Part shown: positions 8,125-35,750 of the stretch, piece by piece
How the letters are laid out: every line of letters starts with the position of its first letter
How positions within the stretch are numbered: the stretch's first letter is position 1
NCBI RefSeq assembly: GCF_009834535.1
Contig: NC_045696.1
Location: 9,364,001-9,428,000 of the forward strand
Source: Camelus ferus
Taxonomy: Eukaryota
Length of the DNA stretch: 64,000 nucleotides
Reading direction: 5' to 3'
Translations under genes and position numbers: made by a program
Notes under the pieces: model-generated
Databases searched by the model: none
What the model saw: only the letters and a program-made list of their open reading frames with translations
Told to the model about the DNA's origin: nothing

Positions 8125-8281
8125 ACACAAAATCATCATGAGTCTGTGTTAGTGGTGAGGATACAGAAGGCGGCCTTCTGAGGCCCCTTCACCAGCCTCT
8201 CCGCCAAGTGGGAGGTGGCAGGGGAGGGGGTGGAGGACCGGGTGGAGGACACACACACACTCATTGAGCGTCTTCTATCTT
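8125..8281 (+). repeat. 157-bp direct repeat, copy 1 (probable source)
   Basis: Identical to 9060-9216 except 8264 T vs 9199 C. Confidence 0.97.
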
Positions 8282-9216: not shown

Positions 9217-9464
9217 GTGAAAGTGGAGAGGAAAGTACTGTATCTACAACCTGAGTAACAGGAGGACACAAGGCAGGAAGTGAGCTGCTGGTTTGGGAAT
9301 TGAAGAAAGGAAAAAAAATGCCTCCAGAAAATTGGACAATTTAAGGAGAACTTCAGAGGTGATTCTCTGGTGCTAGTGTTCTTAAGTCACCTGGAGAGGT
9401 GGTTAATAACAAAATGAAGAGGATAAGAGTAAGAGACCCGAAACCCAACATTAAAATGACTTGA

Positions 9465-10056: not shown

Positions 10057-10063
10057 GACTTGA

Positions 10064-10848: not shown

Positions 10849-10849
10849 A

Positions 10850-10965
10850 AAAAATACAGTCTGATTCAGTGGGTCTTACAGGGGGCTCAGGGATCTGAAT
10901 TGTTAACAAGCTCCCCCAGGGTGATGTGATGCTGGTGGGCTGGACCTCACTGGGGGAAGCACCAG
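10850..10965. mobile_element. MER5-like fragment (other half probably at ~9375-9405)
   Basis: tctgattcagtgggtct...ttaacaagctccccagggtgat motif. Confidence 0.6.
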
Positions 10966-11969
10966 CTTAGCCCTACCTGGAACAAGAGTGAAGGCTGGCA
11001 CTGGTGTTATTATTAATACGTCAGACAGAACTGTCTAACCCCACAGTTGGATGATCTGCTGATAAGAAGACTTGCAAGGTCTAGTCAATAAATTCAACCA
11101 CGTAAGTGTAAAGATAACGGGTGACTTAATACACAGAAAGAGGCACCAAGACTCAGGAAACTGACTTGAGTCCCCTTAGCGATGGGCACCTGCTTCACCC
11201 GCTCCAGCCCCTCCAGCTCTCCCTTTCCGCCTCCAGGATTTACATGCAGGTCCACCTCATAGAGGGAGGGGCTGAGAACCCCCCTAGCTGGAGTCTGTGG
11301 AGTTGCTGGAGCCTGAGGGGTGGGGAGGTGGGCAGTTAGGACCCAAGCATCCAAGTAGACATACAGCTCCCCTGTAGATGGCGTCTTGGCCACCTGAGAC
11401 CACCCAGGGGTCCCCTTGCCTCGTGGCCACTTTGAAGGCTCCCCTGTCTCCTCCTGGCTCCGTTCTGGAGCAAGAAGCAGGGCAGAGCTGAGCTTCATAA
11501 AACCCCCAGCGGCTGGCGGCTGGGGCTTCCTCCTAAATCATGGTGCTTTCCTAACCACAGCAGGTTTGGGCAGAGTCACGCCAGATTGGCCGGGGGAGTG
11601 GTGGGGGGGTGGATGAAAGCACAGGGACACCAGGGCACATATTTTGGCCAGTCCTGACTTGTTCCACAGCTTTTGAGCCTCTTATTTTTATAGTAGTTAT
11701 ACTAAGCTCAGTGAAGTCTGAGGAAAGTTCCACAGAGTAGGGCAATTGTTTCTTTCTCTTTCTCCCTTCTGTCTCCATCCCTGGGAATCCTCTTGTAACT
11801 CATTCCGAAGCCGGTGAGATCCCCAGGAAGCCTGGGCATTCTCCGTCATCTCTGGGTGTCTTGATGAAGCTCACCTAGAGCCCTACGCTGGGACCCGCCG
11901 CCTTCTGCCCTGGCATCTGGAGAAGTTACTCTGCAGTCTCCCTGCTTTGCTCTGTCTCTGTCTCTCTCT

Positions 11970-12320
11970 CTTTTTTCTTTTTTTTTTTTTTTTAGCATTT
12001 TTTTTTAACTGAAGTATAATCAGTTTACAGTGTTGTGTCAATTTCTGGTGTACAACATAATGTTTCAGTCATACATATACATACAGATGTTCATTTTCAT
12101 ATTCTTTTTCATCATAAGTTACTACAAGATACTGAATACAATTCCCTGTGCTATACAGTGCGAACTTGTTGTTTATCTGTTTTATATACAGTAGTTAGTA
12201 CCTGCAAATCTCAAACTCTCAATTTATCCCTTCCCATCCCCTTTCCCCCCTGGGAATCATAAGTTGGTTTTCTATGTCTGTGAGTCTGTTTCTGCCGTGT
12301 AAGTAAGTTCATCTGTGTCA
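11970..12320 (-). mobile_element. Young L1 3' end, same family as 9465-10056
   Basis: Poly-T followed by tgaagtataatcagtttacagtgttgtgtcaatttctggtgtaca, the reverse complement of the L1 3'UTR. Confidence 0.9.
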
Positions 12321-15221: not shown

Positions 15222-15421
15222 GGTGGGAAGAGGAGAGAAGGTGGACTAGAGGGAGAGGGGGGAGGGAGAAGGAGGAGAGGTGGGGAGGGAGAAAGAGGGG
15301 GGAGGGAGAGGGAGGGGGAGGGAGAGGAGGGAGAGGAGGGGGACAAGGAAGGGGAGGGGGAGTTGGAGGGGAGGGGGAGATGGAGGGAGAGGGGGATGGG
15401 GAGGGAGGCGGGAGGAGAGAG
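15222..15421 (+). repeat. G-rich polypurine low-complexity tract
   Basis: About 200 bp of almost only G/A, with many G3-G7 runs. Confidence 0.95.
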
Positions 15422-15654
15422 CACATAGGGCCCAGGACCTGGGCAGCTAAGTCTCCCCCAGCCTCTGGGACCAGCAGTTTGACTTAAAATGCAATATTCA
15501 AATCAATTTAAGACTTCCTGATTTTGAATAATCTATAAGTAAAAAAAAAAGTGTACAATTCTTTCCATTTGCCGGACACGCTGACGTTTCCATTTTGAAT
15601 GCCACGAGGTCTCTCAGAGTCAACAGGGTCGGGGGAAGGCGTGAGGAGCCAGGG

Positions 15655-15810
15655 AGAACCCGGGTAAACTCGGGCCCCACCACTTACTTAATCAAGTGGC
15701 CTTGGGCAGTTCATTTGTTCTCCCCGAGTCTCGGTTTCTCCATTAAAAACCGGAGATAAAAATCCCTACGCCTCGCAGCATAGCCATGAGAGAGGCCCGA
15801 GTCCCGCGGG
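15655..15810 (+). mobile_element. MIR SINE remnant, CpG-rich
   Basis: ccaccacttact...ccttgggcagttcattt..tctccccgagtctcggtttctccattaaaa, similar to the MIR core. Confidence 0.65.
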
Positions 15811-16190
15811 CACCCCATAAAGGCGGCTATTACTGGCATTACGGTCATCAGCGTCATCATCATTACCCCTGCGGACCCGGGCACCTCAGAACAATTAGGG
15901 AACTTAGGGGACTTCTTAACAAGGCTCAATTAGCATCATTTTCATACCAAACTGTACAGCCTTAAAGAAGCGATGATTTTTTTTTTTTTTTTTTTACTTC
16001 TCCACAACCTAACGCCTCTTCCATCTATTCCAAGTGAAAATTAGTAACTGAAGTCGTTTGCTTAATTGCAAAAGCAAACAGATCCCCAGCCAGGAGGCAG
16101 AAACGGCAGGGCCCAGGCCTGGCATCGTGTCTGGGAGTTACATCAACCTTGCGGGGAACCGTCCAGAGGAAACACCTTCTAGGGGGCTGG

Positions 16191-16232
16191 GCACCCCTGA
16201 CCACACCTGACCACCCCTGACCACCCCTGACC
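16191..16232. repeat. Minisatellite, 4 x 10 bp (CCACCCCTGA)
   Basis: gcacccctga ccacacctga ccacccctga ccacccctga cc. Confidence 0.9.
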
Positions 16233-16674
16233 GATGGCAGGGCTGATGAGCCCAGGGGAGCTGCTTACTTTTTAAGAAAATGACACCAAAGCCCTCTGCC
16301 TGTAAAAGCTGAGAGGCTGATCTCCTTTCTGACTTTTGGAGTCTGCACCAAGGGGGCCCGAGCAGGTGGCCACTGCTGTGTCCACCATCACCTGGGGGAG
16401 AGTGAGCTCCGAGCAATGAGAGAAGAAGGTAACCCCCTCCTCCCATCAGAACTTGACATTCAACACTCTGGAAGTGCTCGGATCCACACTATGACAGCCA
16501 GGTGGGGGGGGGGAAACAAGCTAGCCCACCTCTTCCTTATCAAACAGGAATGTTTTGTGGAGAAAATGTCCTCCCAGACCAGCAATTTTGAATGTGATTT
16601 TTAAAAACAAACACTCCTTGAAGACCTACTCTGATTTCAAGTATAGTTGTGAACTATTTATGGACATGATTGGA

Positions 16675-16785
16675 TTCAATCCTTTCAAATGCCTGTAAGA
16701 TGTCCTATTACTATTCCCATTTTACAGATGCGGAAACTGAGGCTCAGAGAGACCACGTAAGCTGCCCAAAGACCCAAACAGAATT
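16675..16785 (-). mobile_element. MIR SINE
   Basis: attcccattttacagatgcggaaactgaggctcagaga, the MIR core. Confidence 0.85.
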
Positions 16786-18015
16786 AGGCAAAGAAAGATC
16801 TCTCCTATCCTTGGAAACTGGATTCAATCTACAGTCCCAGCTTCCTTCCAGGTCCTTGAGATGGAAACTAGACTCTCCTACCCTTCTTCTGACCTCCAGC
16901 ACAGATTTCTGCCTTTGTAATCCCCTCTCACCTGGGTCGCAGAGCCTCCCACCTGGATTCCTGCCGCAGCCTCCTGCTGATCTCTCTGCCTGGGATTTCT
17001 AGCCCCTCTGATCTTCCCCATATCCTAGACAAGCTTAACCCAGATAAAATGCCCGTGTCCTTAGCTCATGCTGCTGGAACGTTACTCAAGTGCAAATTCT
17101 AATTGCATTGCTCACAAGCAGTGTGACCAGGGCAAAGTACCTAAACTTCCAGTGTAGCTCTTGCTCATTCACAACTTAAGGTCAGCAGTGCTGGGTGAGC
17201 ACTAATTAGCTGTTCTGCAGAAAACACACAGAACCATGCCAGACACACAGAAACATTCAATACTCTGTTGCAACCCCTCTTCTTTCGTCCCCCCTCCTGG
17301 ACCCTCCCCTTTCCCTTCCTCTCTCACTTCTGTCTTCTCTCCTCTGTCCTCTCTCCCCTCCTCCCTCCCTTCCTCTCCACTTTCTAATATATGCCAGCCA
17401 GTCAAGCCACGTACTCCCCTTAAATGCTGTCCTTTCTCAGGCCAACTGCTGGGTCCTTAATTATCCCACATCACCTTCCTGAAGTCCCTCTTGTCCACTC
17501 TGCTACCATCTCGCTCCTCCTCAGGTCTGGTCAGCAAGTTCCTCCAACTCTACATCCTTTTCTATGACCGTCTGGGCAGCATTGTTTTTCACCTTTTCTG
17601 AAGTCCTCTGACAATGGAGTTGGCTCTGCCTGGTTTAACGCCAGATCGTTTACTAATTATTTCCTGTTGGCACATTCCTTCAGGGCGGACCCTGTCAGCT
17701 TTCTGTAAGCTGGTGATTAACAGTCCCCTCACTGTGCCGGGGACGGGTTCATTTTCTTCCCTCTCCCTGGCATCATCCACTGCCCACGGCCAGGCCCACA
17801 GAAGTCACTCCAGGAAAACTCACATATGGAGCAAATGGCCACTGTCCTCTAAGGTTCTAGGAAACCCCTCAACACAGGGAGTTCCTTTAAAGACAGGGAA
17901 ACCCTGCCTCGTCCCTACGGAGAACATCGGGGACCTCGCCTAACCTGCCCCCGTCCTCTCCCCAGCCTGCTTGTTCTGGGACTCATGTCTCCACCCACAC
18001 AAAAGGACAATCACT

Positions 18016-18112
18016 GGGTGACCTTGTTTGCCTGGGTCTGTGCTGATTTTAAAGATGGAAACCCCTCATCAGGCCACTAAGTCTCAGGCAAGGTGGGACG
18101 GCTGGTCACCTT
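18016..18112. mobile_element. MER81/MER94-like hAT-Blackjack MITE
   Basis: Terminal inverted repeats gggtgacc...ggtcacct and internal tttgcctggg / ctcaggcaa. Confidence 0.6.
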
Positions 18113-18505
18113 ATTGTCTGCCCCACTGAGAGCTTTATTTTTTGAGAGGATCAAAAACATTATTAACATCCTCATAGGTAACCTAGAAGTGAGACTTTGC
18201 TCCTCCTTAACCAGAACATCAGTGAATTAACCTACCTGAAGGACTGGGTTAGGTAGCCAATCTCTTGAATGCTAAGGAGATGGAAATATCAGCTCCCCAG
18301 GAGGCAGAACAGATGAACAAAGAGTGAGGCGGGAATTTAAGACAAGCCTAGAAAACTCCCCAGATTACTCAGAGCCAGCTTATGCGGGAACAGCCTTTCC
18401 CCTCCTGACTCTCAGGCCACCTTCAGAAAAGAGAAGTTAAAATCGATGGTGCAGTTCAGGTAGCAAATGTCCCCAGAATTGCCCATCTCTGGGTGTGACA
18501 GACAC

Positions 18506-19140
18506 AAAAACACCACCTTGAAAAGATATATACACCCCCACGTTCATTGCAGCATTATTTTTAATAGCCAAGATATGGAAACAACCAAGTGTCCAATGAT
18601 GGATGAGTGGATAAAGAAAATGTGTATAGATACATAATAGACTATTATTCACTTATTTAAAAAGACTGAAATCGTGCCATCAGTGATAAAATGGGTGGGC
18701 TTTCAGGGCCTTTGAGGGCAGAAAAAGACTAATATATGATCTCACTTATATGTGGAATCAACAAAAATAAACCAAAAAACTAAGCTCATAGATACAGAGG
18801 ACAGATTATTGGTGGTTGCCCAGAGGTGGGGAAGCAAAATGGGTGAAGGGGGACAGAGGGTACAAACTTTCAGTTACAAAATAAATAAGTCATTGGAAAG
18901 TAACATACAGCATGGCAACTATACTTAATAATGCTATATCGTATATTTAAAAGTTGCTAAGATCTTAAAAGTTCTCACCACAAGAAAGAAAAAATGTAAC
19001 TGTGTGCAGTGATGGATGTTAACGACACTTACTGGTGTGATCATTTCAAAATACGTACCAATATCGAATCAGTATGTTGCACACCGGAAGCTAACATAAT
19101 GTAGGTTAATTATGCCTCAATAAAAAATGCTTAAAATAAA
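18506..19140 (+). mobile_element. L1 3' end (L1MA9-like), followed by a putative 3' transduction to 19769
   Basis: cgttcattgcagcattatt, aagctcatagatacagag, gatcttaaaagttctcaccacaag motifs, ending in caataaaaaa. Confidence 0.9.
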
Positions 19141-20284
19141 TAAAAATGAAAACTAAAAACATTTAAATGTAATTAATAGGTAAACTGTCCTTCATCACGG
19201 ACACCATGGAGGTTGGCTACCAGCCCATGTTAAACCGTAGCCACTGGAAAGTCATTTAGCATTTCAGTCAAGAGCTTTTGCACTCTCAGGGTCAGCCTCT
19301 GAAACTCCAGGCAATTGAGAAAATAAGTAAATTGAAATGAAATCAAAACATACCCACATAGGGAAGCTGAGACTCATCTGCCCACACTTTGATGTGTTTC
19401 AACTTCCTATGTCCCATTAGTGGTGCTTGGTTCAGAAAACTAAGGGGGGCCCAAGAGCTGAACACCAGCAAAAGGGGAGGTCGACGAAGCGCCTTCATCT
19501 TCCTCTTAAGGTGGAGGATGAAAACCTTAAATTCTTTTTGCTATTCTTGCTTGATTTGGAGATTGTTTCTGTTTCGTTTTGTTTTTCTTATAAGATTATC
19601 TACCTTACTCGAGTACCGTCAATAAAGAACTGATTTTTTTTAATTGTAATGCACAAAGACATATATTTGCATAATGATTTAGTAAGATTAACAGTCATAA
19701 CCATCAGTTGAGGGGGTAGAATCTCACTGAGATCTCAGAAATAAAATAATGAAAATTAAAAAAAAAAAATTGGTACAGTTCAGGAGAAAAAACCCATCCC
19801 AGAAGAGCTCATCTCTGGGTGTGACGGACACTCCAGACCAAAGGGCACCACACGAATGGGCTGGAAACCACGAACTGCTCATCCTAAAATCTTAACTCGA
19901 TCTCAACAAAGGCCACTATTTATCTTTGAGCCTCCATGTTACCCCTTGGATTAAAAAGAAAAGCAAGAATTTCTGTCCTAGTGAAATGCGAGTATCTTCC
20001 AGGTGTCCTCAAGTCAGCAGCTGGGAGAAATCCTGGCGCGCTTGAGTGTCTGCCTCCTCTGAGGAATTTAAAAGGTGGAAAGAGCAGGATGATTAGGAAG
20101 TGTCACCTTAGAACTCAGCTCCTACCTCTTATTCTAAAAAGAAGACACGTAAGCAGATGCATCTTTTCCAAAGAGTTCACCCAAGACCTCAGCAAGGTCA
20201 CAGATTCCAGATCTGTCTTTTACAAACATCCTTATGAACCAAACGGCTATGTTGTGAAATAATGATGATGATGTCGATGGTAGC

Positions 20285-20490
20285 AATTAACACACAGCAT
20301 TTACCCTTTACCAGTCAAAGCACTAAACACTCTACTTATATTAAATCAATACATCTTGACAGCAACCTTATCAGCTGTAGATACTATTACTATCTCCATT
20401 TACAGGTGAGAAAACTAAGACAGAGAGGTCAAGTAACCTGCCCAAGGTCACACAGCAGGCTTTGAACCGAGGAGTCAGCTACAGTCCATC
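20285..20490 (-). mobile_element. MIR SINE
   Basis: tatctccattttacaggtgagaaaactaagacagagaggtcaagtaacctgcccaaggtcacacag. Confidence 0.88.
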
Positions 20491-21440
20491 GTCTTCATCC
20501 CACTCTGGACACTGGCCCATGTGCAAATGGAGAGGCTCCAGCTCCAGCAGAGCCTTTCCTCAGAGTAAAGGGCATTAGCGGGGTTGTCTGCTTGTTTGTT
20601 TTACCCCCACCTCCTTTCAGCAAGGACTGGAGGCGGCTTGCAAGAATCCAGAATAATAAGAGAACATGTATCAGAGGCAAGTGGAAGTACAAAGTGCCCT
20701 GTATAGTGGTTGGGACATTTTACAGCCCTGGGGGACAACGGTGGTGGCCAAGTGGGCTGGGTGGAAGGGGCCTCTGGCCGTGTGCTCCATATTCTGTTCC
20801 CTCTCTAGGAAACTTTTGCCAGAAGTCAGGGTGACGATGAGCTTGACATCGCATCTCCCATCCCCACACTTGGAGTACAAATGGTCCTTCTACCTGATTG
20901 ACAGCGCAGCGCCCCCTCCCCAGACACACACAGCCATGCAGGGCTGGCATCACCTGCAAAATCTGGTGAGTCCTGCAAAGCTGTGAGGACAGCCCACCCC
21001 TTTCCAGCAGGAGACGCGGGGCCAAAGTGCTCCTTGAAAGATCCTGTCGAATCTGCTCTCATCCCGTTCCTCACAGCCCGGGTACCATGTTCTCTGTCAC
21101 AGGGCCAAAAGAGTTTGGGTCAGGGATTTTTTTCAAGGCAGGTAGAACCAAATGCCTGACCTTGGCCCTAAATAGCTTTTAATAGAGCATCCAAAGGATG
21201 TTGAGAGGAAGCAAGACCATTGCCTGCTGTAGAAAAAAGATGTTTTGGACTTGCCCTTCTCATTTCAGAGCCTGAGAAGGCACTGGTTAAGGACCATGGG
21301 GACAATCTCAGAAGCAGCCAGGGAAATAACCACCAATTAACTTTCCAAGTAGGTTGACACTTGAGCACAACTCACTCTAGCCACGGCCTGGGGTGACAGT
21401 GACAGAATGTGAAAGAACAAGATCTTTGTGAAGACTATTT

Positions 21441-21919
21441 GCTGGTAAGTAGGCAGAACCTCAGTGCCTCAAAGATGTCCACATCCTAATAACTCAGCGC
21501 CTGTGAGTATGTTACCTTCCATGGCTAAAGAGGACTTTGCAGATGGGATCAAGGTGATGGCTTTGAGATGGGGAGACGACCCCGGATTGCCAGGTGGGCC
21601 CAGTCTGATCACATGCGGATATCCTGAGGAGTAAGGACCTTTTCCCCTCTGTGGTCAGGGAAGGCTTGACTTTGAAGATGGAGGGAGGGGGCGATGAACC
21701 AAGGAATGCAGGTGCCCTGTAGAAGCTGGAAAAGGCCACAGCGTGGATCATCCCCCAGAGCCTCCAGAAAGAAATGGAGGCCCGCTGCTGCCTTAATTTT
21801 AGCCCAGTGAGACCTGTGTCCAACTTCTGACTGATGGAACTGTAAAATACTAAATGTGAGTTGTTTTAAACCACCAAGTGTGGGGTCATTTGTTACAGCA
21901 GCAACAGGAAGCTAATACA
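21441..21919 (+). mobile_element. MaLR solo LTR (MLT1D-like)
   Basis: aaagatgtccacatcctaat...tatgttaccttccatggc...gactttgcagatg...tttgttacagcagcaacaggaagctaataca. Confidence 0.9.
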
Positions 21920-22503
21920 GTTGATGATTCCAATAAACGAGTCCCAAACCTTTTCTTAAGATGGTTTGCATCAGTCACACAGAGGGACAAACGCTGGAGC
22001 AGGCAGCCCTTAGCTTATTCCCAGAAACTTCCCACATGAGCCTCTCCTCATTTGTCAGGGATTGGTCATGGACACCAAGCATGGTTGTCATCTGAGGAAG
22101 CTCTGTACTGAGCCCACCAGAGCCAAGTCAAGACCACTGCTCCTCTATGCAGACTTGGGAACCACAATAACCTTTTAGGCTCGAATTATGGGGAGGCCCA
22201 CTTGCTCCTCCACATCACCTCTGGGGCCACAGCCTCTGGCAGACAAGCCTGGGACATAGCTTTCTACTTGACTCGTGGGCTATATTTTTTCCCTCAGTGT
22301 TTTAATTTGGTAAGACTGATGTGAGGAGCCATCTGGCCAGAAGTCGAACAGGGAACAATCACAGACCATCCTCTCAAGAGGATGAGGGGTCCACCCATGA
22401 CATTTTGCTCTTTCTAATCTTGGTTCCTTACTGGGTTTTCAGAATCTCTCTTCTCAAAAGGGCTTAATAGCGTCAAGCCGCTTAACGGCTTCAAGAGGTT
22501 GTT

Positions 22504-22521
22504 GGCTCCCCCTAGTGGTCT
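22504..22521 (-). promoter_or_regulatory. CTCF motif (GACCACTAGGGGGAGCC on minus strand)
   Basis: Close match to the CTCF core CCASYAGRKGGCRS. Confidence 0.6.
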
Positions 22522-23852
22522 TGAGATGCATTTTCCGACTTACCACCTTCCCTTTTCACACCCATCCCTCATTAGGGTCTGGTGGAAAACGTTACATTTA
22601 GTTTTCAGGCCCTATAGAAGGCGAAACCTTCCCAATTTGCCTGGGACTCAGGTTCCCTGTTACCTAGGATTCTGAGTTTTAAAATGAGGAAAGTCCTGGA
22701 AAGACCAGAACGCCGTGGTCTCCATACCTATGGCTCCCTTTAGACCCCATGGAAAAACTACCCAAAGAGAGCCTGGTCTTTCTGGGTCCTGGGCCCTGCA
22801 ACAACCGGGTCCCAAACATAATTGGGACCTGGACAGTAGTGCCTTTACTAACGCATCTCGGTTTGAGATCAGCAGCTGACTTGTGCATGTTTTGCTCATG
22901 ATAGGAAAATAACAATTGAAAATGTATAAATTATTTCTGGGACTCTCATTGAAGAACCAGGAGAGGAGAGAGGACACATGGTGGATGGGACAGGAGGGGC
23001 AGGAGTACATAAAATCACATTGTGTGTAACATCGGAAAAGTTGGCCTTAAGCTTCAAAAGCAAGAAAATCAGAGAATTAAAAAAAAATAAGTATGGAGTT
23101 TAGGAAAAGGAATAACTTTTGTACAAATATTCGATCAACCACAAAATTAGCGGAGCAGTGTTCCATGAGCATATATGAACCCTTTAAGTGGGTGACAGAG
23201 AGAACATGAGGAAAAACCAGTAGAAATGTGACAAGAGTCCCAGTCCCTCATGTGCTCAATTCTTAACTAATTTCACAATTTCTGAAATGCAAGGAAGTTT
23301 CTTCCTTTGGGGAGATTCTGACATGGTCGCCATCAGAAATTGGTATCTCAGCTCAAATTCTTGAATTCTACTTGTGAGTCTCCCGTAGAGACTGAAGGGA
23401 ATCACAGTCATGAGATGCCACTTACTGGGGTCCAATGATCTTTCTCCGGGCACCCTCCACCCAAGCTCTTCTCAGCCAACAGTGTCTTCTCCCTTCTTCC
23501 TCTACGGTCTGTGCCAGCAAAGTTGGAATCCACACTGGTCTTATCCCCACCTCTTGGTTAGGGCAGGATGGAGCCATGTAGGGTGCAGGGGAGCGGTTGG
23601 GAGGGAAAAGTCCATGGGCAGGTGAACAGAAAGCTGGACTCCCGTACTCCCACCCACTATGGTCCCAGGGTGACTGCCAAGGGTTAGGCTGTACCAGTCT
23701 GCTTGCAGGTAAAAAGGCCAGTGGCTCCAGCCGTACCATCGCGTGACTACAGTGTAAATCTTCCTGGTTTCTTTAACTTTTCTGCAAGGACAGGGAATGC
23801 TAACTGGACAGGAAACCACCCAGCTGGGCCTGCGTTCCCTTCTCTCCCCTCT

Positions 23853-23869
23853 TCCGCCCTCTAGTGGAG
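23853..23869 (-). promoter_or_regulatory. CTCF motif (CTCCACTAGAGGGCGG on minus strand)
   Basis: Matches the CTCF core CCASYAGRKGGCRS. Confidence 0.6.
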
Positions 23870-25117
23870 CAAACGAGCCAACGAGGTCGCCACAATCAAC
23901 AAAACCTGGTGCCAGAAGTAAGGCTCCTTGAGGAATAAGAACTGAACCCCCCCGTGGGCCTCGTTTTCATATCTTTGTTGGTTTTGTTTATTGTCGTTAC
24001 ACTAGCGCATCCTATGGCACAAACATCACACATCGCACTTCCTGGAAGTCTGTAAAGGAAAAAGGTATCCTAAGGGCAGCAAGGCCTATTTTTAAAAAAG
24101 AAAAATTGAGTATTTTTTTCTTAAAGAAGTAAATGCCCACACAGTTGATAGAATTTTCTAGATGGACTTCGTCTCCACACCCAACCAGTGGTTCAGGCCA
24201 TTTTCCTCCCAGTGGAGCGGAAAGCTATGCTCGCTGTCTGCACTTTATCGGTAAAATGTGTTCATTAGGGTCCTGGGTCCAGGCCACAGAGGGGATTATG
24301 CTCTATCTTGAAATATGCTTCTCCCTCCTCCATAACCTTAGAGCTTAGGGACAATTTCATCCATCACTACACTTAGATCCTGAGAAAATACATTTTAGAT
24401 CTTGCAACTTTGAAACATAGATCTGAACTTTTCAAAAAGCCTACGAATCCAAAATACATTCCCAAGTATGTACAGTATTCATTCTTTTTAACTGTTGTGT
24501 AACAATCAGTGTATTATTAGCTGGATTAGGTGGCTGACCGCCCGTGACCCACGTAGCTTCATCACTGAACCCAACTGCTCTTAGCTTTAAATTCTGGCCC
24601 ACGGCTTAGTTATGCTGATGTTCGTTGTCTCAGTGGGTGGAATCAAGTCAGAAGAAGTACGTGGATGAACAAAATGGAAACTCGCTATTTAGCCTCCTAT
24701 AGGAATTATGCTTTAAAAACTCCAGGGCTATTTTTAATCCGTATTTAATAATATGGCCTGATACCAACTGAACCTTTTCCATAGAAACGAAAAGCTTATT
24801 TCCTTGTAAAATTCTCACAAGGAATTATTACAACAAAGGAACATCTTGTTCTGGAAAGCCAGCTTAATAACGCAGCCTGTTTTTCTATACCCTGGTGGTT
24901 TACGTTCTTGAATGACTGAGAGTATTCCATTTCTTATAGGGACTCCAAAGGGAAAAATAGGTCCACCAAACAGAAGAAGGGGTCGCATGCCCTCTTTTCA
25001 TCTGCACTGCACCCCTCCACTCCCCCTTGGAACCGCCTTAACCCACTCTGCACCTCTCCCCTTGACCATCTTCTCGCCCACCCAGATTTCACCAGCTTAG
25101 AAGAGCCATAAACCACA

Positions 25118-25608
25118 TGTCCCGGTTACCTATCGCCCAAGAACAAGTCACTCCAAATTTAGCAGCCTAAATGGTCTGTTTTATTCTATCTCATGACTTT
25201 GTAAATCAGGAGTTTGGAAAAGGCTTAACTAGATGATCCTTCTGCTCCATGTGACACTGACAAGCTCACTCAGTGGTGTTCAGCTGGTGAATTGGCTGGG
25301 CCCAGGGGTCCGAGACAGCTTCACACACTTGTCTAGTGTCTCGGCAGGGTGGCTGCGGGGCTGAGCTCAGCTGGGATTGTCAAACGGAGCACCTACAGGT
25401 CGTCCTTCCAGCCTGGTGTCCTCAGGGTGGTCAGTCAACAAGGCAGAAGTTACACAGCCTTTTATACTGAAAACCACACAGCATCGCCCCCGCCATATTC
25501 TACTAGTTACCAAGTATCACAAAGGTCAGTCCAGGTTCAGAGGGAGGAGTCAGACCCCACTTCCCAGTGGGAGGAGGGTCAAAGAGTTTGCAGCCATAAC
25601 TCACCACA
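25118..25608 (-). mobile_element. Old MaLR solo LTR (MLT1 H-K-like); about three quarters of it forms the left arm of the inverted duplication
   Basis: TGT...ACA termini; cactccaaatttagcagcctaaa...tctcatgactttgtaaatcaggagtttgg MLT1 motif. Confidence 0.7.
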
Positions 25609-26176
25609 CTCTCTGCTTTCAGGGGGTGCCAAAATGCTCAAATCATTTATTTGTGTCTTTATTTTTATTAACTTTTATTTTTAAACTTTTTTCAATTGAA
25701 GTATGGTTGATTTACAATGTTGTGTTAATTTCTGGTATACAGCATAGTGATTCAGTTATACATATATATTTTCCTTCTCAAATTCTTTTTCATTATAGGT
25801 TATTACAAGGTATTGAATATAGTTCCCTGTGCTCTACAGTAGGACCTTGTTGTTTATCTATTTTACATCTAGTAGTTAGTATCTACAAATCCAGAACTTG
25901 CAATTTATCTCTGCCCACCTTTCCCCCCAACCCGGTAACCATAAGTTTGTTTTCTTTGTCTGTGAGCCTATCTCTGTTCTGTAAATAATTTCATTTATGT
26001 TTTTTTTTTTCCTTTTTTTTAGATTCCACATATAAATGAATCTGTGTCTTTACTAACTTGAGCTGGTTTAAGAAAATTTTAGCAGTGCCTAAAGCAATAG
26101 TTTTTTTTTTTTTTTTAATGTTATCCAGTGGTGAGCAGAGCTGTGTATCCACATGTACTTATTACAGCAAACCTCA
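25251..26176 (+). repeat. Left arm of long inverted repeat (interrupted by L1 25662-26039)
   Basis: Reverse complement of 27224-27754. ORFs 25349+ and 27661- translate nearly identically. Confidence 0.97.
25662..26039 (-). mobile_element. L1 3' end inserted in the left arm of the inverted repeat
   Basis: T-rich tail then ttgaagtatggttgatttacaatgttgtg. TSD at(t/c)tgtgtcttta at 25649-25661 and 26040-26052. The empty site is present in the right arm. Confidence 0.93.
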
Positions 26177-27223
26177 CTCTCTGGAGAGTGACAGAGCAAT
26201 GTCACTTTAATTGCTGCTTTTCATGATGCAAATAATCATAATATAAACGTTAAAATGGCAGTTAACAAAAAAAGTCCCCCTCCCTCTCTCATGTGTCAAT
26301 ACCTCTGAGTGTTCTGAAGCATGGAATTCTCCATTCAGAGAGCTAAATGACACAAAAAAGCCATTGAGTGCAACCCCAAACTTCATCTTGTGTGACCACT
26401 TACGGGAACAGAGTTGAAGGCATCCAGCCTGGATGGAGTTCAAACAAAAGGAACAGCCTTGGAGAAAGATAAAGTCTTTCCAAGATTCTTCAAACTCACC
26501 GTGTCCAAGGCCCTGACACCAAAGGCAACAAAAAAGTGTGAATCTTCCTCATTTACAGGGAAAGCCTGGTGTCTCTGGATCTCCAACAACACCCTTATTC
26601 TGGGCGACCTTTAAAGAACAGGACAGCTGAGATGTAGCTGGCTGTCTTGGACATGCCTGTGGCCATTGTCCTGAGGGCCCCTCAGAACCCCTCGTGTGCC
26701 CCCATGCAGGGAAGAGAACAGTGGCCTCCCTGCCCTGACTCCTCATCCTCAGCTCACTGTGGCTGGAGGTGGGCCGGGGGTCTCGTGGGGGATGGCTGGG
26801 TGCCTGAGCATCTTCCCACCAGACAGCTGCATCCTAGCCCCCAGGAAGGTTAGAAAAATGCGAACATAAAGCCTGGGCAGAATGTGTGCGGGTGTCCGCT
26901 GCCAGCAGCTGGCCACTCTCACCAGGGGTCAGTCTCACTGGCCGGAAGGCAGAATCCCCCAGATTTAAAAAAGGGAACCCAACTCTTGCTTCTCCAGGGC
27001 GACTCTAAACTCGCACATTCCAAAACGAAAAGGGGGCAATGAGTCTGGTATCTACTTAATCAGCACATATTGCTTCTCTTTTGTAAGAATAAATGGCTTC
27101 CTCTTAGAGATCACAAAGAGGTGACTGCAAAAAGGGCATATGAAGCAGCCCAGATCAGGGCTGGAGAGACCCTCTTTGCTGCTGTACTAGAGTTAGGAGA
27201 ATTCTACGGGAATCATATGAAAT

Positions 27224-27754
27224 TGAGGTTTGCTGTATAAGTACTGCTGACACATTGATCTACTTATCACGGAATATAAAAAAAAAAATAACTCCATTGC
27301 TTTAGGCACTGCTAAAATTTTCTTAAACCGGTTCAAGTTAGTAAAGACACAGATCTATATATGAATGATTTGAGCATTTCAGCGCACCCTGAAAGCAGAG
27401 AGTATGGTGGGTTATGGCTGCAAACTCTTTGACCCTCCTCCCACTGGGAAGTGGGTCTGACTCCTCCCTCTGAACCTGGACTGACCTTTGTGATACTCGG
27501 TAACTAGTAGAATATGGCGGGGGCGATGCTGTGTGGTCTTCAGTATAAAAGGCTGTGTAACTTCTGCCTTGTTGACTGACCACCCTGAGGACACCAGGCT
27601 GGAAGGACGACCTGTAGGTGCTCCGTTTGACAATCCCAGCTGAGCTCAGCCCCGCAGCCATCCTGCCGAGACACTAGACAAGTGTGTGAAGCTGTCTTTG
27701 ACCCCCGGGCCCATCCCATTCACCAGCTGAACACCACTGAGTGGCCTGTGTCAC
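27224..27754 (-). repeat. Right arm of long inverted repeat (~530 bp)
   Basis: Reverse complement aligns to 25251-25661 plus 26053-26176. Confidence 0.97.
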
Positions 27755-29289
27755 TCCCCCATTTTGGTCTTCAACTATTTTCCTTACCATAGTCTCCCAC
27801 CATAGAAATAAAAGGTTAAAAAATGATTTTTAACATGCCTTGTACTTTAATAGTTTTTCAATTTTGTGGCTCAGACAAAAGCCAATGTCTGTAAATGCAA
27901 GTCTGACAGCTGAGGCAGTGCTGGCTTAGTTGGAAATAATTTATGGGATTATAAAATTTACATTCTTCCAAATACACCATTAAAACTAACCACCCAGTTC
28001 TTTCCACCCGATATGGTAGCCGTGCTTGTATATTGTCCCCTTCATTCATCCACCCACTGTGCACAGCACAGACTTCCACGCAGAGGGGAGCACAGGAGAA
28101 GGGCGGGGCCCTCGCTGTCGGAGACCTAGAGGCCAAGTCTCTCCTTCTGGCTGTCCACTGTCCAGCCTGCCATCCTGCTCTTCCCACGTGTCCCAGCCAC
28201 CCCCTGAGCTCCCCTTCCTCATGCAGCATTGTAAGTGTTTCCTTCTGGATCATCCTCTAAGGCTGAAGGTTCCGGAAAGGCAGGGGCTGTGTTCCTCACT
28301 GCTTGTCACTGCTGCTCCCCCAGCCCCACACACAGTGCCTGTTGTGTGGTGGGTTCTCAGAAGCATTCACAGTGAGTAGTCTAAGTGGGTCCAAAACACC
28401 ACCTGGTGGATTGAAAGGCTGAAAAGCAGCTTTTACTTCTCCCCATATCAAGAAGCAGCGTTCAGGTGGATGACCAAGTACAGAAGGAAGGAGAAAGAGT
28501 GAGTTGGGGTAGAGTTCAAAAAACTGGTAAAAATGGAGAATTTTTTTTAATCTGATGATTTCTGGCACTCACATGTAAGACTAGACTTTCCCTCCCAGAC
28601 TGAGTAAGTGTATATCAGCACGGTCTCTGTTTCTCTATAGAGCTACCCTCTCCGAAGCTTCAAAATTATCTTTCCAAACTATCTTTGGATATTTGCGTAT
28701 TTCCATCCTCCCTCCCATTAAACATGAGCTACAGGTAGGCTTCCGCAATTCACTGGGCTCAATAGGATTTCTCATCAACCTCTGTATATTTTAGTCAATT
28801 CTTTCAGCAGATGGGATCCCAAAAAGAACCAGGAGACACAGCCTCCGAAACAACACTTTGATGAAGTGATCTTCATCACAGATAATTTCTTTCCACAACG
28901 GTTTTTATTTGTGGGAATAAATGCATTTCGGTCGATGGCAAGCCACGATCAGAGTGATCCATCTTACATTTTCAGGTCGAGCAGTGTGGGTGTGAAATAA
29001 TGCTGCTGTCTATACACTTTAAACTTAGTTTTGAACAGGAATTCTAACAATGTAAGAAAGAGTTTGATCCTGAGAGGATGTGTGCCTGATAAAATGTAAA
29101 CCTGCTAATTAAAAAGAAAGGGCGGAAGGCAAGACTTGAAATACCTAATCCCTCAGGACTTAAGAAGTTAAGAGAATAAAAAGTAAAACAGAGCATTTAA
29201 AGGTTCCAGGAAATGAAGCTGAAGTTTCTAAGAGTGCTAGCACGGCCTGTGCTCTGCTTTCCCAAGTATCCATGACCAGAAATCACCAA

Positions 29290-29665
29290 GACTAAAAGGG
29301 TAAATGACTCCAAGTAGTCAAAAGAGTCCCATAAAAATTTATACAACTCCTGTGACAGACAGATGTCTAATTTCCTTAATATAAAAATCAGGAAGAACAA
29401 GACCAAAGGGCAACTTGAAAAATGAGCAACGGACATAATCAGCCAGGTCACGGAAAAATTGATACCAACGGTTTTTAAATACATAAAAGTAAATTCAGCC
29501 TCATGTGTACTAAAAGAGATGTGAGTTTACTGACAGTGGACATCCTTTTTCACCTCCCAGATTCAAGAAGCTGGGGGATGCACTGAGCGGGCAAAGTTGG
29601 GAAAGCAGAGACCACTCATCTAGTGTCGGGGAGCATTATTTGGTATAAAAAATGTCACTGGGGGT
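29290..29665 (+). mobile_element. Old L1 (L1ME-like) fragment
   Basis: gaaaaatgagcaacggacataatcagccaggtcac...ttaaatacataaaag..ttcagcctca motifs. Confidence 0.65.
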
Positions 29666-30182
29666 AAAAACTCAAAGTTGCATAAGTGCCTTTTTGCTCA
29701 CTTTTTCTTCTGAACCCATAGCCCACACTGAGTTACGCAAATAACATCTCCCCTTCAAGCTCTTGGGAGACCAGACCCCACAGAAGCGGTCTCAGCCTGC
29801 TGGCTCCTGACGGAAGATACATGGAGCGCTTCAGCCTGCTGATCCCCCAGGAGCCCATCCGACCCTGGGCCCGACAGATCCCCGCCCCACGTCCACCCCA
29901 TGGTGACCCACGGGGTGTGACAAAGCTCTGGCGGCTGGATTTGCTGGCTTACTTATGTGGGGGACGTATCTCTGGGTGACAATGCTTACTCAAAGGCCGT
30001 GTGTTTCTCAAGTCCTGCTCCAGCCTCAGTTTTACCTCCATGGAGAATCTAAATGTTATGGCAGATGTAAGTTTTCGAGCTCAGCGGTAGCTGTGTATCA
30101 GTGGTTAAATGTGTGGAGTCCAAAACATAATTTAAGAAATTCTTAAGCCCTGGCCAAAGATAATTCACTGGTCACCTTAAGG

Positions 30183-30299
30183 TTTTTTTTTTTTTTTAAT
30201 TTTACCCCACCCCACCCTTAATGGAGGCACTGGGGATTGAACCCAGGACCTCGTGCATACCAAGCATTCGCTCTACCACTAAGCTATATCCTCCACCTA
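30183..30299 (-). mobile_element. tRNA-derived SINE, vic-1-like
   Basis: tggggattgaacccaggacctcgtgcat...ctctaccactaagctata. TSD taaggtttttt on both sides. Confidence 0.88.
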
Positions 30300-31080
30300 C
30301 CTAAGGTTTTTTAAAGTCGTGTGAAATTTGCCAGGAAATCCTATCTCAGACTGTCCCGCCTGTTAGGCCCTCCCTCCGAGTGCCAGAACCGAACCTGTAA
30401 GCCAGACTTCCTTAGCGACTAAATCCCCGCAGTCGCTAACACCGTTATTTACAGTATTAGCATCTCTTCTGCCATTTGTTGGCACTATGATGGTGTGTTA
30501 TTATGTTGTTATCCTCCATTTTCATGAGTAGAGAAGAAGAGTCTTTCTTACTAAATACATTGCAGGGTTACCCTATAATTTGATGGCAAATAATTAACAC
30601 TTTGAGAAAACAAAACTAAAAATTAGCAATGAGAGGCAGTTAATTTCCCATACAAGAATTCTGGGAGGCCTTCCTGTGGCCTGTCCTATATGTTCCTGGA
30701 TCTTTCACATCCAAGCATACATTCTTACATAGGTACAGAATGAAACAAAATGACAAATTAATAAAATGACAATTCGCACAAAGGTGGGGAATATAAACCA
30801 CCAGGTGGCTTAAATTAGAAGCATATTTTATTATTACATTTTACTGGATTCTATGTCATTATTTTCTGGTATATTTTTAACCTAGATATTTATTTTTTAA
30901 AATAGGAAGAAATGTAAAAGTTAAAAGTTCCCAAATAAAGTGTGAGCTAATTAGTGTAAAACAGTTTTTACCAGGCTATCCTGAAGGCTAGGGGAATGTC
31001 TAGAGCAGCATCGCAGCACTCTCTGTAAAGAACAGTTCTGTGAGTTCTACACTCCAGCCATGGCATCGAAAACCCACTAT

Positions 31081-31601
31081 ATATATAATGGAATACTACT
31101 CATCCATAAAAAATGAAATAATGCCCTTTGCAGCAACATAGATGGACCTGGAGATTATCATTCTAAGTGAAGTAAGCCAGAAAGAGAAAGAAAAATGCCA
31201 TATGATATCACTTATATGTGGACTCTAAAAAAAAAAAAAATACAAAAATGAACTTCTTTACAAAACAGAAACAGTCTCACAGGCATAGAAAACAAACTTA
31301 TAGTTACCAGGGGGAAAGGGGGTGGAAAGGGATAAATTGGAAGTTCCAGATTTGCAGATACTAACTACTACATGTAAAATAGATAAACAACAGGCTTCTT
31401 CACTATAGCACAGGGAACTATATTCAATAACTTGTAGTAACCTACAATGAAAAAGAATATGAAAAGGAATATATATATGCACATGCATGACCGAAGCATT
31501 ATGCTGCACACCAGAAACTGACACAACATTGTAAACTGACTATGCTTCAATAAAAAAAAGGTTTAAAACAAAAGAAAGAAAACATTTTTTAAAAAAGAAA
31601 A
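31081..31601 (+). mobile_element. Young L1 3' end
   Basis: Same 3'UTR family as 9465-10056. TSD gaaaacccac at 31068-31077 and 31602-31611. Confidence 0.93.
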
Positions 31602-32249
31602 GAAAACCCACCATGACACACCTGACATGTTTACAAAACCAGGAGGTCAGATGCTCACTGTGGAACACTGAGGCCAGACAAAATAGAGCCCAAAGAAGGC
31701 AACTCGAAAAGGTTAAATCCAGCAAAGAAATCCTACTCTGAACTAATTTAAGGATTCTTAAATCAAATATTACAAACTCAAAAGATAAAACAGTCTAAAG
31801 GACTTTTGCTTGGTTTTTGCTTTGGGATCTTTTGATTAGAAAAGCTAAGAAGAAAGTGGGATGCTTGAGCAATTCTAAGTGCCCCTCAGGAGCTGTATAA
31901 AGTAGTTGTTTGAAAACCAATCTCACTGTTTGGAGATCCATTTGTTTCCTTAAGGAAAGGAAGAGAACAACTGAGCACCAAACCAATCGTCACAGACAGA
32001 GTCTGGACAAGCCATCCACGGTGTGGCCCTTGCCTCTGCCTCCACAAACTCCTCAGAGCAGAATCTGAGAAAATAACATGCTTCTACTTTTCATGACATC
32101 CTTTTCCCCGGAGTATGGAGGCAATTGGGTACCTAGAGAATCTGCCCTAAAAAAAATTAAACTAAAATGGCAGGGATGGAATGAGAAAGGGATTATTCCT
32201 GTGCAAAATTAATGAAAGTTCATCAAAGCTGAGCAGGAGTAATAGTAAT

Positions 32250-32490
32250 TTACACTTACACCAGGCTTGCTTCAAGTCACTTACTGTTCTAAGTGCTTTA
32301 TACAGTCTCCATCCCGAATCTCCTCAACCACCTCGTGGAGTTGGTGCTATTATTGTTCCCGTTTTATACGTAAGCAGCAAAGGCAAAGAAAGGTTAAGTA
32401 ACTTGCCCCATGTCACACAGCAAGAAAGCAGCAGAGCCAGGATTTGATCCCAGACCCACTGGCTCTAAAATCTGTGCTATTGACCACTAC
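32250..32490 (-). mobile_element. MIR SINE
   Basis: ctgttctaagtgcttta...aggttaagtaacttgccccatgtcacacagc...gagccaggatttgatcccag. Confidence 0.88.
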
Positions 32491-34229
32491 GATATGCTGC
32501 CTCCTAGAGGCAGCCACCCATTCAAACCATCGTGTCCCCGACCTGTGCTCCGCACCAGAGGTAGCACGCAGAGGACAGTGCCATGTGTGAGTGGAGCTTC
32601 AACAGAGGGGAACCCAACCCAAATTAAGGCTAGAAAAATCTCCCCAGAGGAGACGATAGCCATGCTGGATCTTGGACACATAGCAGATAACCAGACAGGG
32701 GACAGGGAGAGGGACGAAGGGGAAGAAACTCGATTCAAGTACAGAATATGCAAAATTTCAGGGCAGAAAAGAATGTGGTTCTCTCAAAGACCGGTATGTA
32801 GTTTAACACCACTGGCAAAGTGGCACCACGGGTGACAAAGGCGGGGGGCACCCAGGCAATTCCAAGGAGACAAGAATCACATCATGCAGAGTCTTGTGAC
32901 CTGGCTAAGAAGTGTGGGTTTATCTGAAATTCTTCAATAAACAACTGAAGATCAAATGATCTTTTATTTCCTAGCTCACTGGCTATTACGAAGGGACTCG
33001 ATCGGAGAGAACAGAGGATAGGTGCAGAGAGACTAGTTAGGTAGCTGTGTTTCCAAGCTGTAACAAGAGGCTAGAACCCTGTAGCCAGGCCACTGGAGAA
33101 AGGGGAAATTTCTTAAACCAGGGAGCAGATGTGGGGCACACACAGCAGCACAGTGTTCAGATTTCCCCCTCCTCCAAATTCCTGAAGACTTCCGGCTCCC
33201 AGTGAGCCTCCTGGGGGTTGTGCCCTCAGGTTATGTCCCAATACATCATCTTAAATTGTCTCAGCATCTTCAAAAGTGCTCAGAAGGGCATCTTCTCACT
33301 AGTGAGGGAACACATACCCTTTCTTCCCAAACTTTCTTGCCACCCAAAGAATTCCTGAAATTCTAATGTTAATCACTTTGGGTTTTTAGGGGGTTTTTTG
33401 TTTTGTTTTGTTTCTTATTAAAATTTGCTTACATTTCTGTCAAGGAGGTTTAGGCCATAACTGGCCTCCATAAGCCTGAAAGTATTTTGGATGGATTATG
33501 ATTCAACTTACAATGCACATTCTTGACCTTATTACCTGCTGCTCTCCCAATCTGGCCAAAGGTCTCTGGGAAGGGCTTTTTCAACAAAGATTCTCCTGTG
33601 AGCTGCCCCTGGACCTTGTTCCTTACTTGTGATGCCTCCTAGGAATGCCTGTTTCAACTCAGAACTTCCTCACTTGTGTCTCTACAGAAACTTTAACAGA
33701 ACCTTTGTTCTCTGAATCTTTGAAGGCTGAACATATGACATAAAAGCAGGTGATGTTTGTCATCAGCTTCTTGTAGTCTTCCAAAATAAATGTTCAAATG
33801 TTCACTAAATATTATAGCAGTGAAATGAACTTCCATTTTCCTCTCAAACCTGCCTTATCGATTCTTCCAAAATGGAAAACCTCTTTGGAGCTGAAAATGT
33901 TGGCCAGCTCTGGGCCTCTGAGATTTGAGTCCAGGATACTGTCTCACATTACAACCTACCTGTTTGCATTTTTTCACTTCAAGTATTAGCATTTCCTTTG
34001 GCAGAAATTGCTTTGAACATCAATAGAGTTTGTTGCTTTTTTTTTTTTTTTTTTTAAGTTCTTTAACAACCTCCTGACTAGAAGAGCCAGTTAGGATTTT
34101 CAGGACAAAGGACAGTGGGATGCCGGACCCCACTTCCCACCAGTCCCACCTCAACCTTTTTGCTTCCAAACCCTCAATTCTTCCTCGTAGCATTCCTTTT
34201 GAAACCCAGGCTGCCCCACCTCCCTCCCG

Positions 34230-35750
34230 CGGACAGACGCGCTTGGTGACAATCAGGACGCCTAGAGTGTGATCCCCGCGTGTCCGTCTAGGATAGGATC
34301 TGAGAAGACCAAGACTAGGCACGGGAGTTGGGGGAAGCGAGACTTACCTTCACGAAGAGGGTGATGTCGTGCTCCTGCCCCGGGGCCCCCTCGTCAGACG
34401 CCTCGCCGTCCTCCCGGCGGCCGTTCACCCGCGCCGGCTCCTCGCCGCGCTCGGCGCTGCCCTCCTCCGCCAGGTGGTTGCTCAGCTCGGCCTCGGGCTC
34501 CGCCGCCCCCGTCGGCGGGGCCACCTCCGCATCCGCGCTGCGGTCGGAGGGCTCCTCCTCGCCCCCGGCAGTGGACTCCTCGCCTGGCCCCTCTGGACCC
34601 GGCTCCCGCCTCTCTCCCTCGGCCTTCTCCGTCTCCTCCCGGGCCCCACCCTGGTCCGCGGCCTCACCGGCGTTTGCCCTCGCGTCCGCGGGGGCCGTTT
34701 CCTCCGACTCTGCTCCCTCCTGGGCCCCCGCCTGCTCCGGGGCGGCCGTCGCTGCACCCCGAGGCTCCCCCGCAAGCTCCCCAGGGCTGCACTCCGCGCT
34801 TTCCGCCGCCGTGGCCTCGGACGCCTCGGCCTGGGGTTGGGGGCTGCCGTCCCCTCCGTCCGGGGGCTCACCCTCGGCCCCGTGTGCCCCTTCTGCCCGC
34901 CCCCCAACCTCCATGCTGTCCCCCACCGCCCCGGGCTCCTCGGGCCCGCGCTCCGCCTCTCCCTTCGCCTCGGGGGCCGCAGTGTCCCCCGGCTCCCCCT
35001 GAGCCTCCCCGGGGGCCTCGCCCTGCGCGCCGCGCCCTGAGCTCGCCTCTTCCACCTGCTCCGCGCCGCTCGCCTGCTCCTCTCCCTCCCGGGCGACCCC
35101 CTCCGCCTCGGCCTCGCCTTGCGCTCCCCTCGCGCCCGGCGGCTCGGCCCCCGGGTCACCGCCCGCGCCCGGCGCCACCTCGCCCGCGCGCCCTCCGTCC
35201 GGCCCCGGGCCTTCTCCTTCCGTCACCGCGGCGGTCCCGGCTGCATCCGCCCCCTCTCCCCTCGGCGCCTCCGCCGCGCCGTCGCTCGCCTCCTCCCCCT
35301 GCACCTCCGGGCCGGCAGCCCCCGGCTCGCCCCGTCTCTCCTCCTGCAGCGCCGGCTCCTGGGCCGGGCTCTGGGGACCCGGGGCGCCCCTCTCCGGCTC
35401 CCCGGCCTCGGCCATGGCCGCAGAGCCCTGTCTTTGACCAGAGATCCTTCCTTGACGCTGCTGAGGAGGCAGGTGGCGCTGGGCGAAGGGCGCGGTGCCG
35501 GGGACCACTGCGCCCCCTCCGAGAGGACCGCTGCTCCGGGCTCTGGCGGCGCCGGGGCGGTGCGCTGGTCGCGCGGGGCGAAATCCTCTCGCCCCAAGAC
35601 ACGGCGGCCCTTACCCTGAGTTTAAGCTCTCTGAGGTCTTCTTCCACTTCTCGTGCTTCTCCCTGGTTCCGCGTCTGCTTACCACCTGGACCCTAATTCT
35701 GACCTTGGTTCCCTGGAAATGCACCCGCGGAGGTGAGCGTGTGGCTGGGG
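34230..35750. promoter_or_regulatory. CpG island covering the CLIC6 promoter, 5' UTR and exon 1
   Basis: Very high GC content and dense CG dinucleotides over ~1.5 kb, in sharp contrast to the flanks. Confidence 0.93.
34348..35415 (-). CDS. CLIC6: CLIC6 coding exon 1 (356 aa acidic, Glu/Gly/Ala/Pro-rich N-terminal extension ending ...QEHDITLFVK)
   Basis: ATG at 35415 in strong Kozak context (GCGGCCATGG). Translation MAEAGEPE...ELSNHLAEEG...RVNGRREDGEAS...GQEHDITLFVK resembles the CLIC6 N-terminus. Ends at the consensus phase-0 donor AAG|GTAAGT (34348/34347). Confidence 0.96.

What the first reader, a model, noticed from the sequence alone, without database searches (positions are those of the whole stretch)
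25251..27754. Old intronic inverted duplication with a homogenised core: apparent ongoing gene conversion between arms
Seen: 25251-26176 (minus an L1 insert) is the reverse complement of 27224-27754, leaving a ~1.05-kb unique spacer (26177-27223). Identity is strongly graded. By eye there are only 4 differences over ~285 bp of the core (25315-25600, including ~120 bp identical), clustered mismatches at the outer edge and just inside the core, and roughly 75% identity at the innermost ~60 bp. The arms include part of an old MLT1 LTR plus non-LTR flank, and the right arm stops mid-LTR, so these are not two independent LTR insertions. The core is also unusually CpG-rich for an ancient LTR. Inference: an ancient duplication kept homogeneous by arm-to-arm, possibly GC-biased, gene conversion. 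It could allow recurrent inversion of the spacer and would fold into a ~400-bp dsRNA stem in CLIC6 pre-mRNA (ADAR substrate).
Basis: partly seen in the sequence, partly recalled or inferred. Interest (0 to 1): 0.72.

Follow-up and report, generated by a model that had tools for sequence, protein, structure and literature searches.

The report
Old inverted duplicate re-homogenised, CLIC6 intron
A camel-family genome carries a backwards copy of about 530 bases inside the first intron of the CLIC6 gene; the copy looks old but its middle was made nearly identical again by copying between the two arms, a real but familiar kind of DNA upkeep with no function shown.

Summary
The inverted repeat is real. 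It lies in intron 1 of camelid CLIC6: left arm 25251-26176, interrupted by an L1 3' end, and right arm 27224-27754, with a 1,047-bp spacer. The 288-column core has 4 differences; the innermost 75 columns have 18 (24%). Two clocks inside the window suggest the duplication is old: the inner divergence, and the L1, which sits in one arm only and is about as decayed as six other copies (end branch 0.13). Arms that old should differ by roughly 14-24%, so the outer part was most likely re-copied after the L1 landed, by non-allelic gene conversion or a template switch. Not shown: that this is ongoing or recurrent, GC-biased, or that the spacer inverts. The CpG claim fails: core o/e 0.29 against a window background of 0.30. 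Identity is patchy rather than smoothly graded. No orthologous, population or RNA data could be obtained, so the decisive cross-species test is open. This is a small new member of a known kind, homogenised inverted repeats, probably neutral.

The parts
8054..34347 (-). CLIC6 intron 1 (host intron; the repeat lies 6.6-9.1 kb from the exon-1 donor)
   Evidence: tblastn of alpaca CLIC6 P0001 maps exon 1 to 35415-34348 (94.5%); exon 2 starts at 8053
25119..25608 (-). Old LTR-like element (MLT1-type by recalled resemblance only; ends approximate); 25251-25608 is duplicated, 25119-25250 is not
   Evidence: sequence; family name recalled, untested; no homology of 25115-25250 to the right flank
25251..25648 (+). 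Left arm, outer part (pairs with 27363-27754)
25313..25600 (+). Homogenised core, 4 differences in 288 columns; 122-bp identical run at 25350-25471; partner 27411-27697
25649..25661 (+). First copy of a 13-bp target-site duplication (1 mismatch to the second copy)
25662..26039 (-). 5'-truncated L1 3' end with a degenerate poly-A tail, left arm only (the name L1 is recalled; the dispersed-repeat nature is shown)
   Evidence: six other copies in the window at 18.9-27.2% distance; end branch 0.13
26040..26176 (+). Left arm, inner part (begins with the second TSD copy 26040-26052); 2 differences in the first 59 columns, 18 in the last 75; pairs with 27224-27354
26177..27223 (.). Unique spacer, 1,047 bp
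   Evidence: no strong match elsewhere in the window
26183..26196 (+). 12/14 inverted match to the right arm's outer junction 27746-27759; a possible template-switch microhomology (weak lead)
   Evidence: 36 of 4,247 tiles score as high (0.85%), before correcting for 6 junction pairs
27224..27754 (-). Right arm, uninterrupted; single copy of the TSD (empty L1 site, 27342-27354) plus 8 unmatched bases 27355-27362; by eye no poly-A tail or flanking direct repeat

Best explanation
An old DNA-level templated duplication copied about 530 bp (part of an old LTR plus its flank) and placed it, inverted, 1 kb away (the duplication is shown; templated origin is inferred from the absence of a poly-A tail or TSD at its ends). 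An L1 then inserted into the left arm (one-arm presence and empty site are shown; the order is inferred). Later, at least one and probably two or more non-reciprocal copying events between the close inverted arms (non-allelic gene conversion, or a replication template switch) reset the outer part to 96-99% identity. The innermost 75 bp escaped and kept drifting (inferred). The core's 1.0% substitution difference (95% CI 0.2-3.0%) puts its last reset near 1 My ago (0.2-3 My) at 5e-9 per year, a rate taken from a passage of PMC8605555, or 2-3 times older at slower recalled rates. The process is probably neutral, and no function is shown.
For: Heterogeneity of the differences (Fisher core vs non-core 4/288 vs 32/228, p=2e-8, boundaries chosen after seeing the data). 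L1 age: 23 of 330 columns strictly private (7.0%, CI 4.5-10.3; the other six copies 4.2-10.2%), 37 of 303 against the majority letter (12%), nearest copy 18.9% away, end branch 0.13, placed outside a five-copy group (85/92 support, midpoint root). Arms older than this L1 should differ by about 14-24%, which fits the inner 24% (CI 15-35%) but not the core (binomial P 6e-17 at 16%, 1e-3 even at 5%). Inside the L1, 2 differences in 59 columns against 18 in 75 (permutation within the inner arm p=0.009) suggest a separate tract. Core length matches the reported mean tract of 250 bp (10.1101/135152, passages), and conversion is reported as elevated between copies under 10 kb apart (PMC6598467, passage).
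Against: No orthologue, population or read data were obtained, so concerted evolution is inferred from one sequence. BIC prefers a plain two-segment model. Within the outer 441 columns, patchiness is only moderate (p 0.002-0.23 by window and statistic; spacing statistic p=0.06), and the 59-column block is not significant against all non-core columns (p=0.067). L1 dating rests on 7 copies and an unrooted tree: a young copy of an unsampled subfamily would also look private. There is no CpG or GC signature. The longest perfect run, 122 bp, is short of the 400-bp local homology threshold modelled in 10.1101/135152.
Confidence: 0.7

Rival explanations
1. Young duplication or one-off extension. Most of the repeat (the outer 441 columns, 4% diverged) arose in a single fairly recent template-switch event primed from an older short inverted match (the inner 75 bp). 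The L1 either came later from a young subfamily or was skipped by a jump between its 13-bp TSD copies. No repeated homogenisation is needed.
For: BIC-best model is two segments. Heterogeneity in the outer 441 columns is modest. A very recent multi-jump templated insertion at 9005-9216 in the same intron suggests such events happen here. There is a possible junction microhomology.
Against: It needs either a young L1 (the insert has a degenerate tail, a mismatched TSD, an end branch of 0.13 and no copy nearer than 18.9% in the window) or an exact skip of it. Mismatch clusters on both sides of the core (5/20 and 6/31 against 4/288; permutation p=0.002 for the 288 window, chosen after the fact) need a further cause.
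Confidence: 0.19
2. Assembly or polishing artefact: two moderately similar arms were made more alike in the core by mis-mapped reads during consensus polishing.
For: No reads could be checked (one search listed no runs). One of the four core differences is a homopolymer indel.
Against: Reads from arms 15-25% apart would map uniquely, so polishing could only flatten arms that were already alike. Three arm-specific substitutions survive in the core. An L1 with a TSD in one arm and diverged inner ends cannot come from a fold-back chimera.
Confidence: 0.07
3. Selection keeps the arms complementary because the fold-back stem in CLIC6 pre-mRNA (or a DNA-level element in the LTR core) has a function.
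For: It is the most perfect inverted pair over 100 bp in intron 1 (93% over 420 columns; the other four such pairs involving different elements are 75-83%). The predicted fold pairs 286 of 288 core positions, duplex -799 kcal/mol against -411 and -380 for two L1 pairs.
Against: Point-by-point compensation cannot plausibly hold 99% identity. No Rfam match at E 0.1 in 24000-29000. The pair is 6.6 kb from the nearest mapped exon. No extra exon maps here: 2 of 72 homologues with the junction have extra residues, and neither has a match in the repeat.
Confidence: 0.04

Closest known systems
Non-allelic gene conversion between nearby duplicates and transposon copies (10.1101/135152, PMC3924837, PMC6598467; passages read)
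   Same: Mosaic identity, a block near the 250-bp mean tract length, copies under 10 kb apart, escape of parts beyond a TE insertion or accumulated differences
   Different: Here the pair is a non-coding inverted LTR-plus-flank duplicate; the GC bias reported for human conversions is not seen; evidence is from one genome only
Inverted repeats flanking FLNA-EMD, and human polymorphic inversions mediated by inverted repeats (PMC8327919 and PMC3961182, passages; Caceres 2007 seen only as cited there)
   Same: Inverted arms around a unique spacer, which could in principle flip by recombination between arms
   Different: Those have both orientations documented and (recalled) much longer, more identical arms; here arms are 0.5 kb, 93% overall, longest perfect run 122 bp, and no inversion was observed
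Primate X and Y palindromes with GC-biased arm-to-arm conversion (PMC3723533, PMC8981503; search-listing abstracts only)
   Same: Arm-to-arm homogenisation of an inverted duplicate
   Different: Those exceed 99% identity, are large, sex-linked and gene-bearing; this is small, intronic, gene-free and (recalled) autosomal
Template-switch homogenisation of short inverted repeats in yeast (PMC8604942, passages)
   Same: Makes arms alike and can invert the spacer without meiotic conversion; it cannot be told from conversion here
   Different: Described for arms of 7 bp or more (examples up to 16 bp) and spacers up to 70 bp; this repeat is far larger in both

Membership tests
Inverted duplicates under concerted evolution by non-allelic gene conversion | Two paralogous copies in cis, from one duplication rather than two insertions | tested here: met
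   Shared sequence runs on past the putative LTR end into flank, and the right copy ends inside the element
Inverted duplicates under concerted evolution by non-allelic gene conversion | Identity higher than the age of the duplication allows, by an independent clock | tested here: met
   L1 in one arm (7-13% own divergence) and inner 24% against core 1.4%; the L1 age rests on 7 window copies
Inverted duplicates under concerted evolution by non-allelic gene conversion | Tract-like patchiness implying repeated events | tested here: inconclusive
   Strong over the whole arm, modest within the outer 441 columns; BIC prefers two segments
Inverted duplicates under concerted evolution by non-allelic gene conversion | Arms group by species, not by position, across orthologous loci | not testable with these tools
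   No genome held, no runs listed, no orthologue in metagenome contigs
GC-biased conversion tracts | Raised GC or CpG, or excess weak-to-strong fixation | tested here: not met
   Core CpG o/e 0.29 vs background 0.30; core GC 0.54 vs 0.50-0.51 in three other LTR-like repeats and 0.49 in the spacer; polarised substitutions not testable
Recurrent inversions mediated by inverted repeats | Both spacer orientations within or between species | not testable with these tools
   No reads or orthologues obtained
Large sex-chromosome-type palindromes | Large arms at over 99% identity | tested here: not met
   Arms about 0.5 kb, 36 differences in 516 columns
ADAR-edited intronic fold-back pairs | Long near-perfect duplex possible in one pre-mRNA | tested here: met
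   Predicted only: 507 arm-to-arm pairs in a 2,601-nt fold
ADAR-edited intronic fold-back pairs | Clustered A-to-G changes in RNA reads | not tested
   No RNA runs were sought or laid

The most novel reading that the evidence does not exclude
A gene-free, autosomal inverted repeat with arms of only 0.5 kb has been kept alike by recurrent arm-to-arm exchange for tens of millions of years across camelids or wider, on both sides of a 390-bp L1 block and with perfect homology never much above 120 bp, while its 1-kb spacer toggles in orientation. That would make it a minimal natural system for measuring the lower length limit of concerted evolution and inversion recurrence in mammals, and a long-lived dsRNA stem in CLIC6 pre-mRNA.
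Probability: 0.15. Interest if true: 0.58.

Novelty: new member of a known kind. Interest (0 to 1): 0.3.

Why it matters
If orthologues confirm it, this is a compact, internally dated example of homogenisation between very short inverted arms, below the homology lengths usually modelled for non-allelic conversion, and easy to genotype for spacer inversion with long reads in camels and alpacas. It does not point to a new mechanism, and nothing links it to CLIC6 function.

Tried and rejected
Own genome: none held. Sequencing runs: one search (26180-30100, DNA, library word PACBIO) listed none; that means 'none was listed', not 'none exists', so no reads were laid. Metagenome contigs: an exact 25-mer shared by both arms gave 0 matches; a CLIC6 exon-1 alignment gave 600 pattern matches, 0 confirmed. 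Rfam: 0 matches at E 0.1 in 24000-29000. Two independent LTR insertions: rejected, because shared flank continues past the LTR-like end and no homology exists beyond 27754; the apparent nhmmer extension to 27825 did not survive tile tests. CpG enrichment: rejected. Hidden alternative exon in the repeat: none found. Literature: 9 library searches listed no paper describing this locus. Supplement searches: PMC13629690, 3 files, 0 hits for CLIC6 or chr21 (possibly other notation, so uninformative); PMC6044046, 1 file, 0 for CLIC6 and 3 for chr21, of which 2 were shown. The goat CLIC6 variant in PMC11490145 is a 77-bp deletion listed as '6/6', unrelated. Supplements of bioRxiv 10.1101/2021.12.20.472354 (human inversion list) were not seen and may bear on a human orthologue. 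Earlier scan notes: nothing by place or sequence.

Full report
Setting. The window encodes CLIC6 on the minus strand. The exon-1 translation is 94% identical to alpaca CLIC6 and at most 70% to any other of the 89 hits, so the source is a camelid, probably not alpaca itself (inference). The exon-3 peptide's best PDB match is CLIC6. Exon 1 ends at 34348 and exon 2 starts at 8053, so the repeat lies in the 26.3-kb intron 1.

Observation. The inverted repeat is as described. Over 516 aligned columns there are 32 substitutions and 4 indels. The core 25313-25600 has 3 transitions and one 1-bp indel, with 122 identical bases in a row. Mismatches cluster at 25293-25312 (5) and 25601-25631 (6), and the innermost 75 columns carry 18 events. 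Uniform divergence is rejected (200,000 permutations: p=2.5e-5 for the quiet stretch, 0 for the dense one). The pattern is patchy rather than a smooth gradient: the outer 26 and inner 22 columns are near-perfect, and BIC favours two segments, 441 columns at 4.1% and 75 at 24%. Tile tests found no homology beyond 27754 or into the spacer. Because the shared sequence runs from inside the LTR-like element into its flank, this is one duplication, not two insertions. The MLT1 and L1 names are recalled and were not tested against a repeat library.

Dating. The insert 25662-26039 has six other copies in the window, 18.9-27.2% away. It is flanked by a 13-bp direct repeat with one mismatch, and the right arm holds that sequence once, next to 8 unmatched bases. 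Its strictly private divergence is 23 of 330 columns (7.0%), within the 4.2-10.2% of the other copies. On a 7-row tree its end branch is 0.13 and it falls outside a five-copy group (85/92, not starred, midpoint root). If the duplication predates it, the arms should differ by about 14-24%. The inner end fits (24%, CI 15-35%); the core does not (P 6e-17 at 16%). The weak point is that a young copy from an unsampled subfamily would also look private, and seven copies cannot exclude that.

Mechanism. The simplest reading is an old templated inverted duplication, then an L1 insertion in the left arm, then re-copying between arms. The 288-bp core is close to the mean conversion tract of 250 bp estimated for human duplicates (10.1101/135152, passages). 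Conversion is said to be raised between copies under 10 kb apart (PMC6598467, passage) and to stop where TEs or substitutions break pairing (PMC3924837, passage). The block just inside the L1 (2 differences in 59 columns) hints at a second tract (p=0.009 within the inner arm, p=0.067 against all non-core columns). One genome cannot separate ongoing conversion from one or two past events, nor conversion from a template switch. Within the outer 441 columns the evidence for patchiness is moderate (p from 0.002 to 0.23 over nine statistics), which keeps a one-off extension alive as a rival. A 12/14 inverted match between the spacer's start and the right arm's outer junction (36 of 4,247 tiles as good, six junction pairs tried) is a weak lead for a two-switch origin that would have inverted the spacer.

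Claims that fail or stay open. The core is not CpG-rich: 6-7 CpG, o/e 0.29-0.33, against 6.0 and 0.30 in 330 GC-matched windows. Its GC (0.54) is above the unduplicated part of the element (0.415) but close to three other LTR-like repeats (0.50-0.51), so GC bias has no support. The predicted fold pairs 286 of 288 core bases, and this is the best-matched long inverted pair in the intron, but that follows from the identity; editing was not examined. No cross-species, population or read evidence was obtained, so spacer inversion and species-wise grouping of arms are untested.

Comparison. It works like the homogenised inverted repeats known from mammalian palindromes and repeat-flanked inversions (PMC8327919 and PMC3961182, passages; PMC3723533 and PMC8981503, listing abstracts; PMC1803023, abstract), but it is far smaller and less identical and is not a member of the large-palindrome class. 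Nine library searches and two supplement searches found no description of this locus. Earlier scan notes list several similar cases in other genomes, including an alpaca-like one; these are unchecked and are not support.

Verdict. Real, probably old and re-homogenised (0.7), probably neutral, a new member of a known kind. Interest 0.3.

Noticed in passing
window 9005-9216: A chain of three templated pieces in CLIC6 intron 1: 9005-9036 is the reverse complement of 9820-9851, 9033-9059 of 9660-9686 (both inside the L1-type copy next door; 4-base overlap between the two pieces), and 9060-9216 is a direct copy of 8125-8281 (156 of 157 identical). It looks like a very recent multi-jump template-switch insertion about 1 kb from exon 2, or an assembly artefact.
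   Followed up: partly
window 26183-26206 and 27746-27759: The spacer starts with a small hairpin (7-bp stem at 26187-26206) whose arms resemble the repeat's outer junction; possible microhomology from the duplication event.
   Followed up: partly
window 34000-36000: CpG island over CLIC6 exon 1 (o/e 0.63-0.93 in four 500-bp bins); ordinary.
   Followed up: no
window 9565-10056, 11969-12321, 25672-26039, 31078-31584: Several 300-380-bp inverted pairs of L1-type 3' ends (75-83%) lie in the same intron and could also form RNA duplexes.
   Followed up: partly
window 46344-46436 and 39600-39660: Two-copy tandem duplications of 46 bp (91%) and 31 bp (86%) upstream of CLIC6.
   Followed up: no
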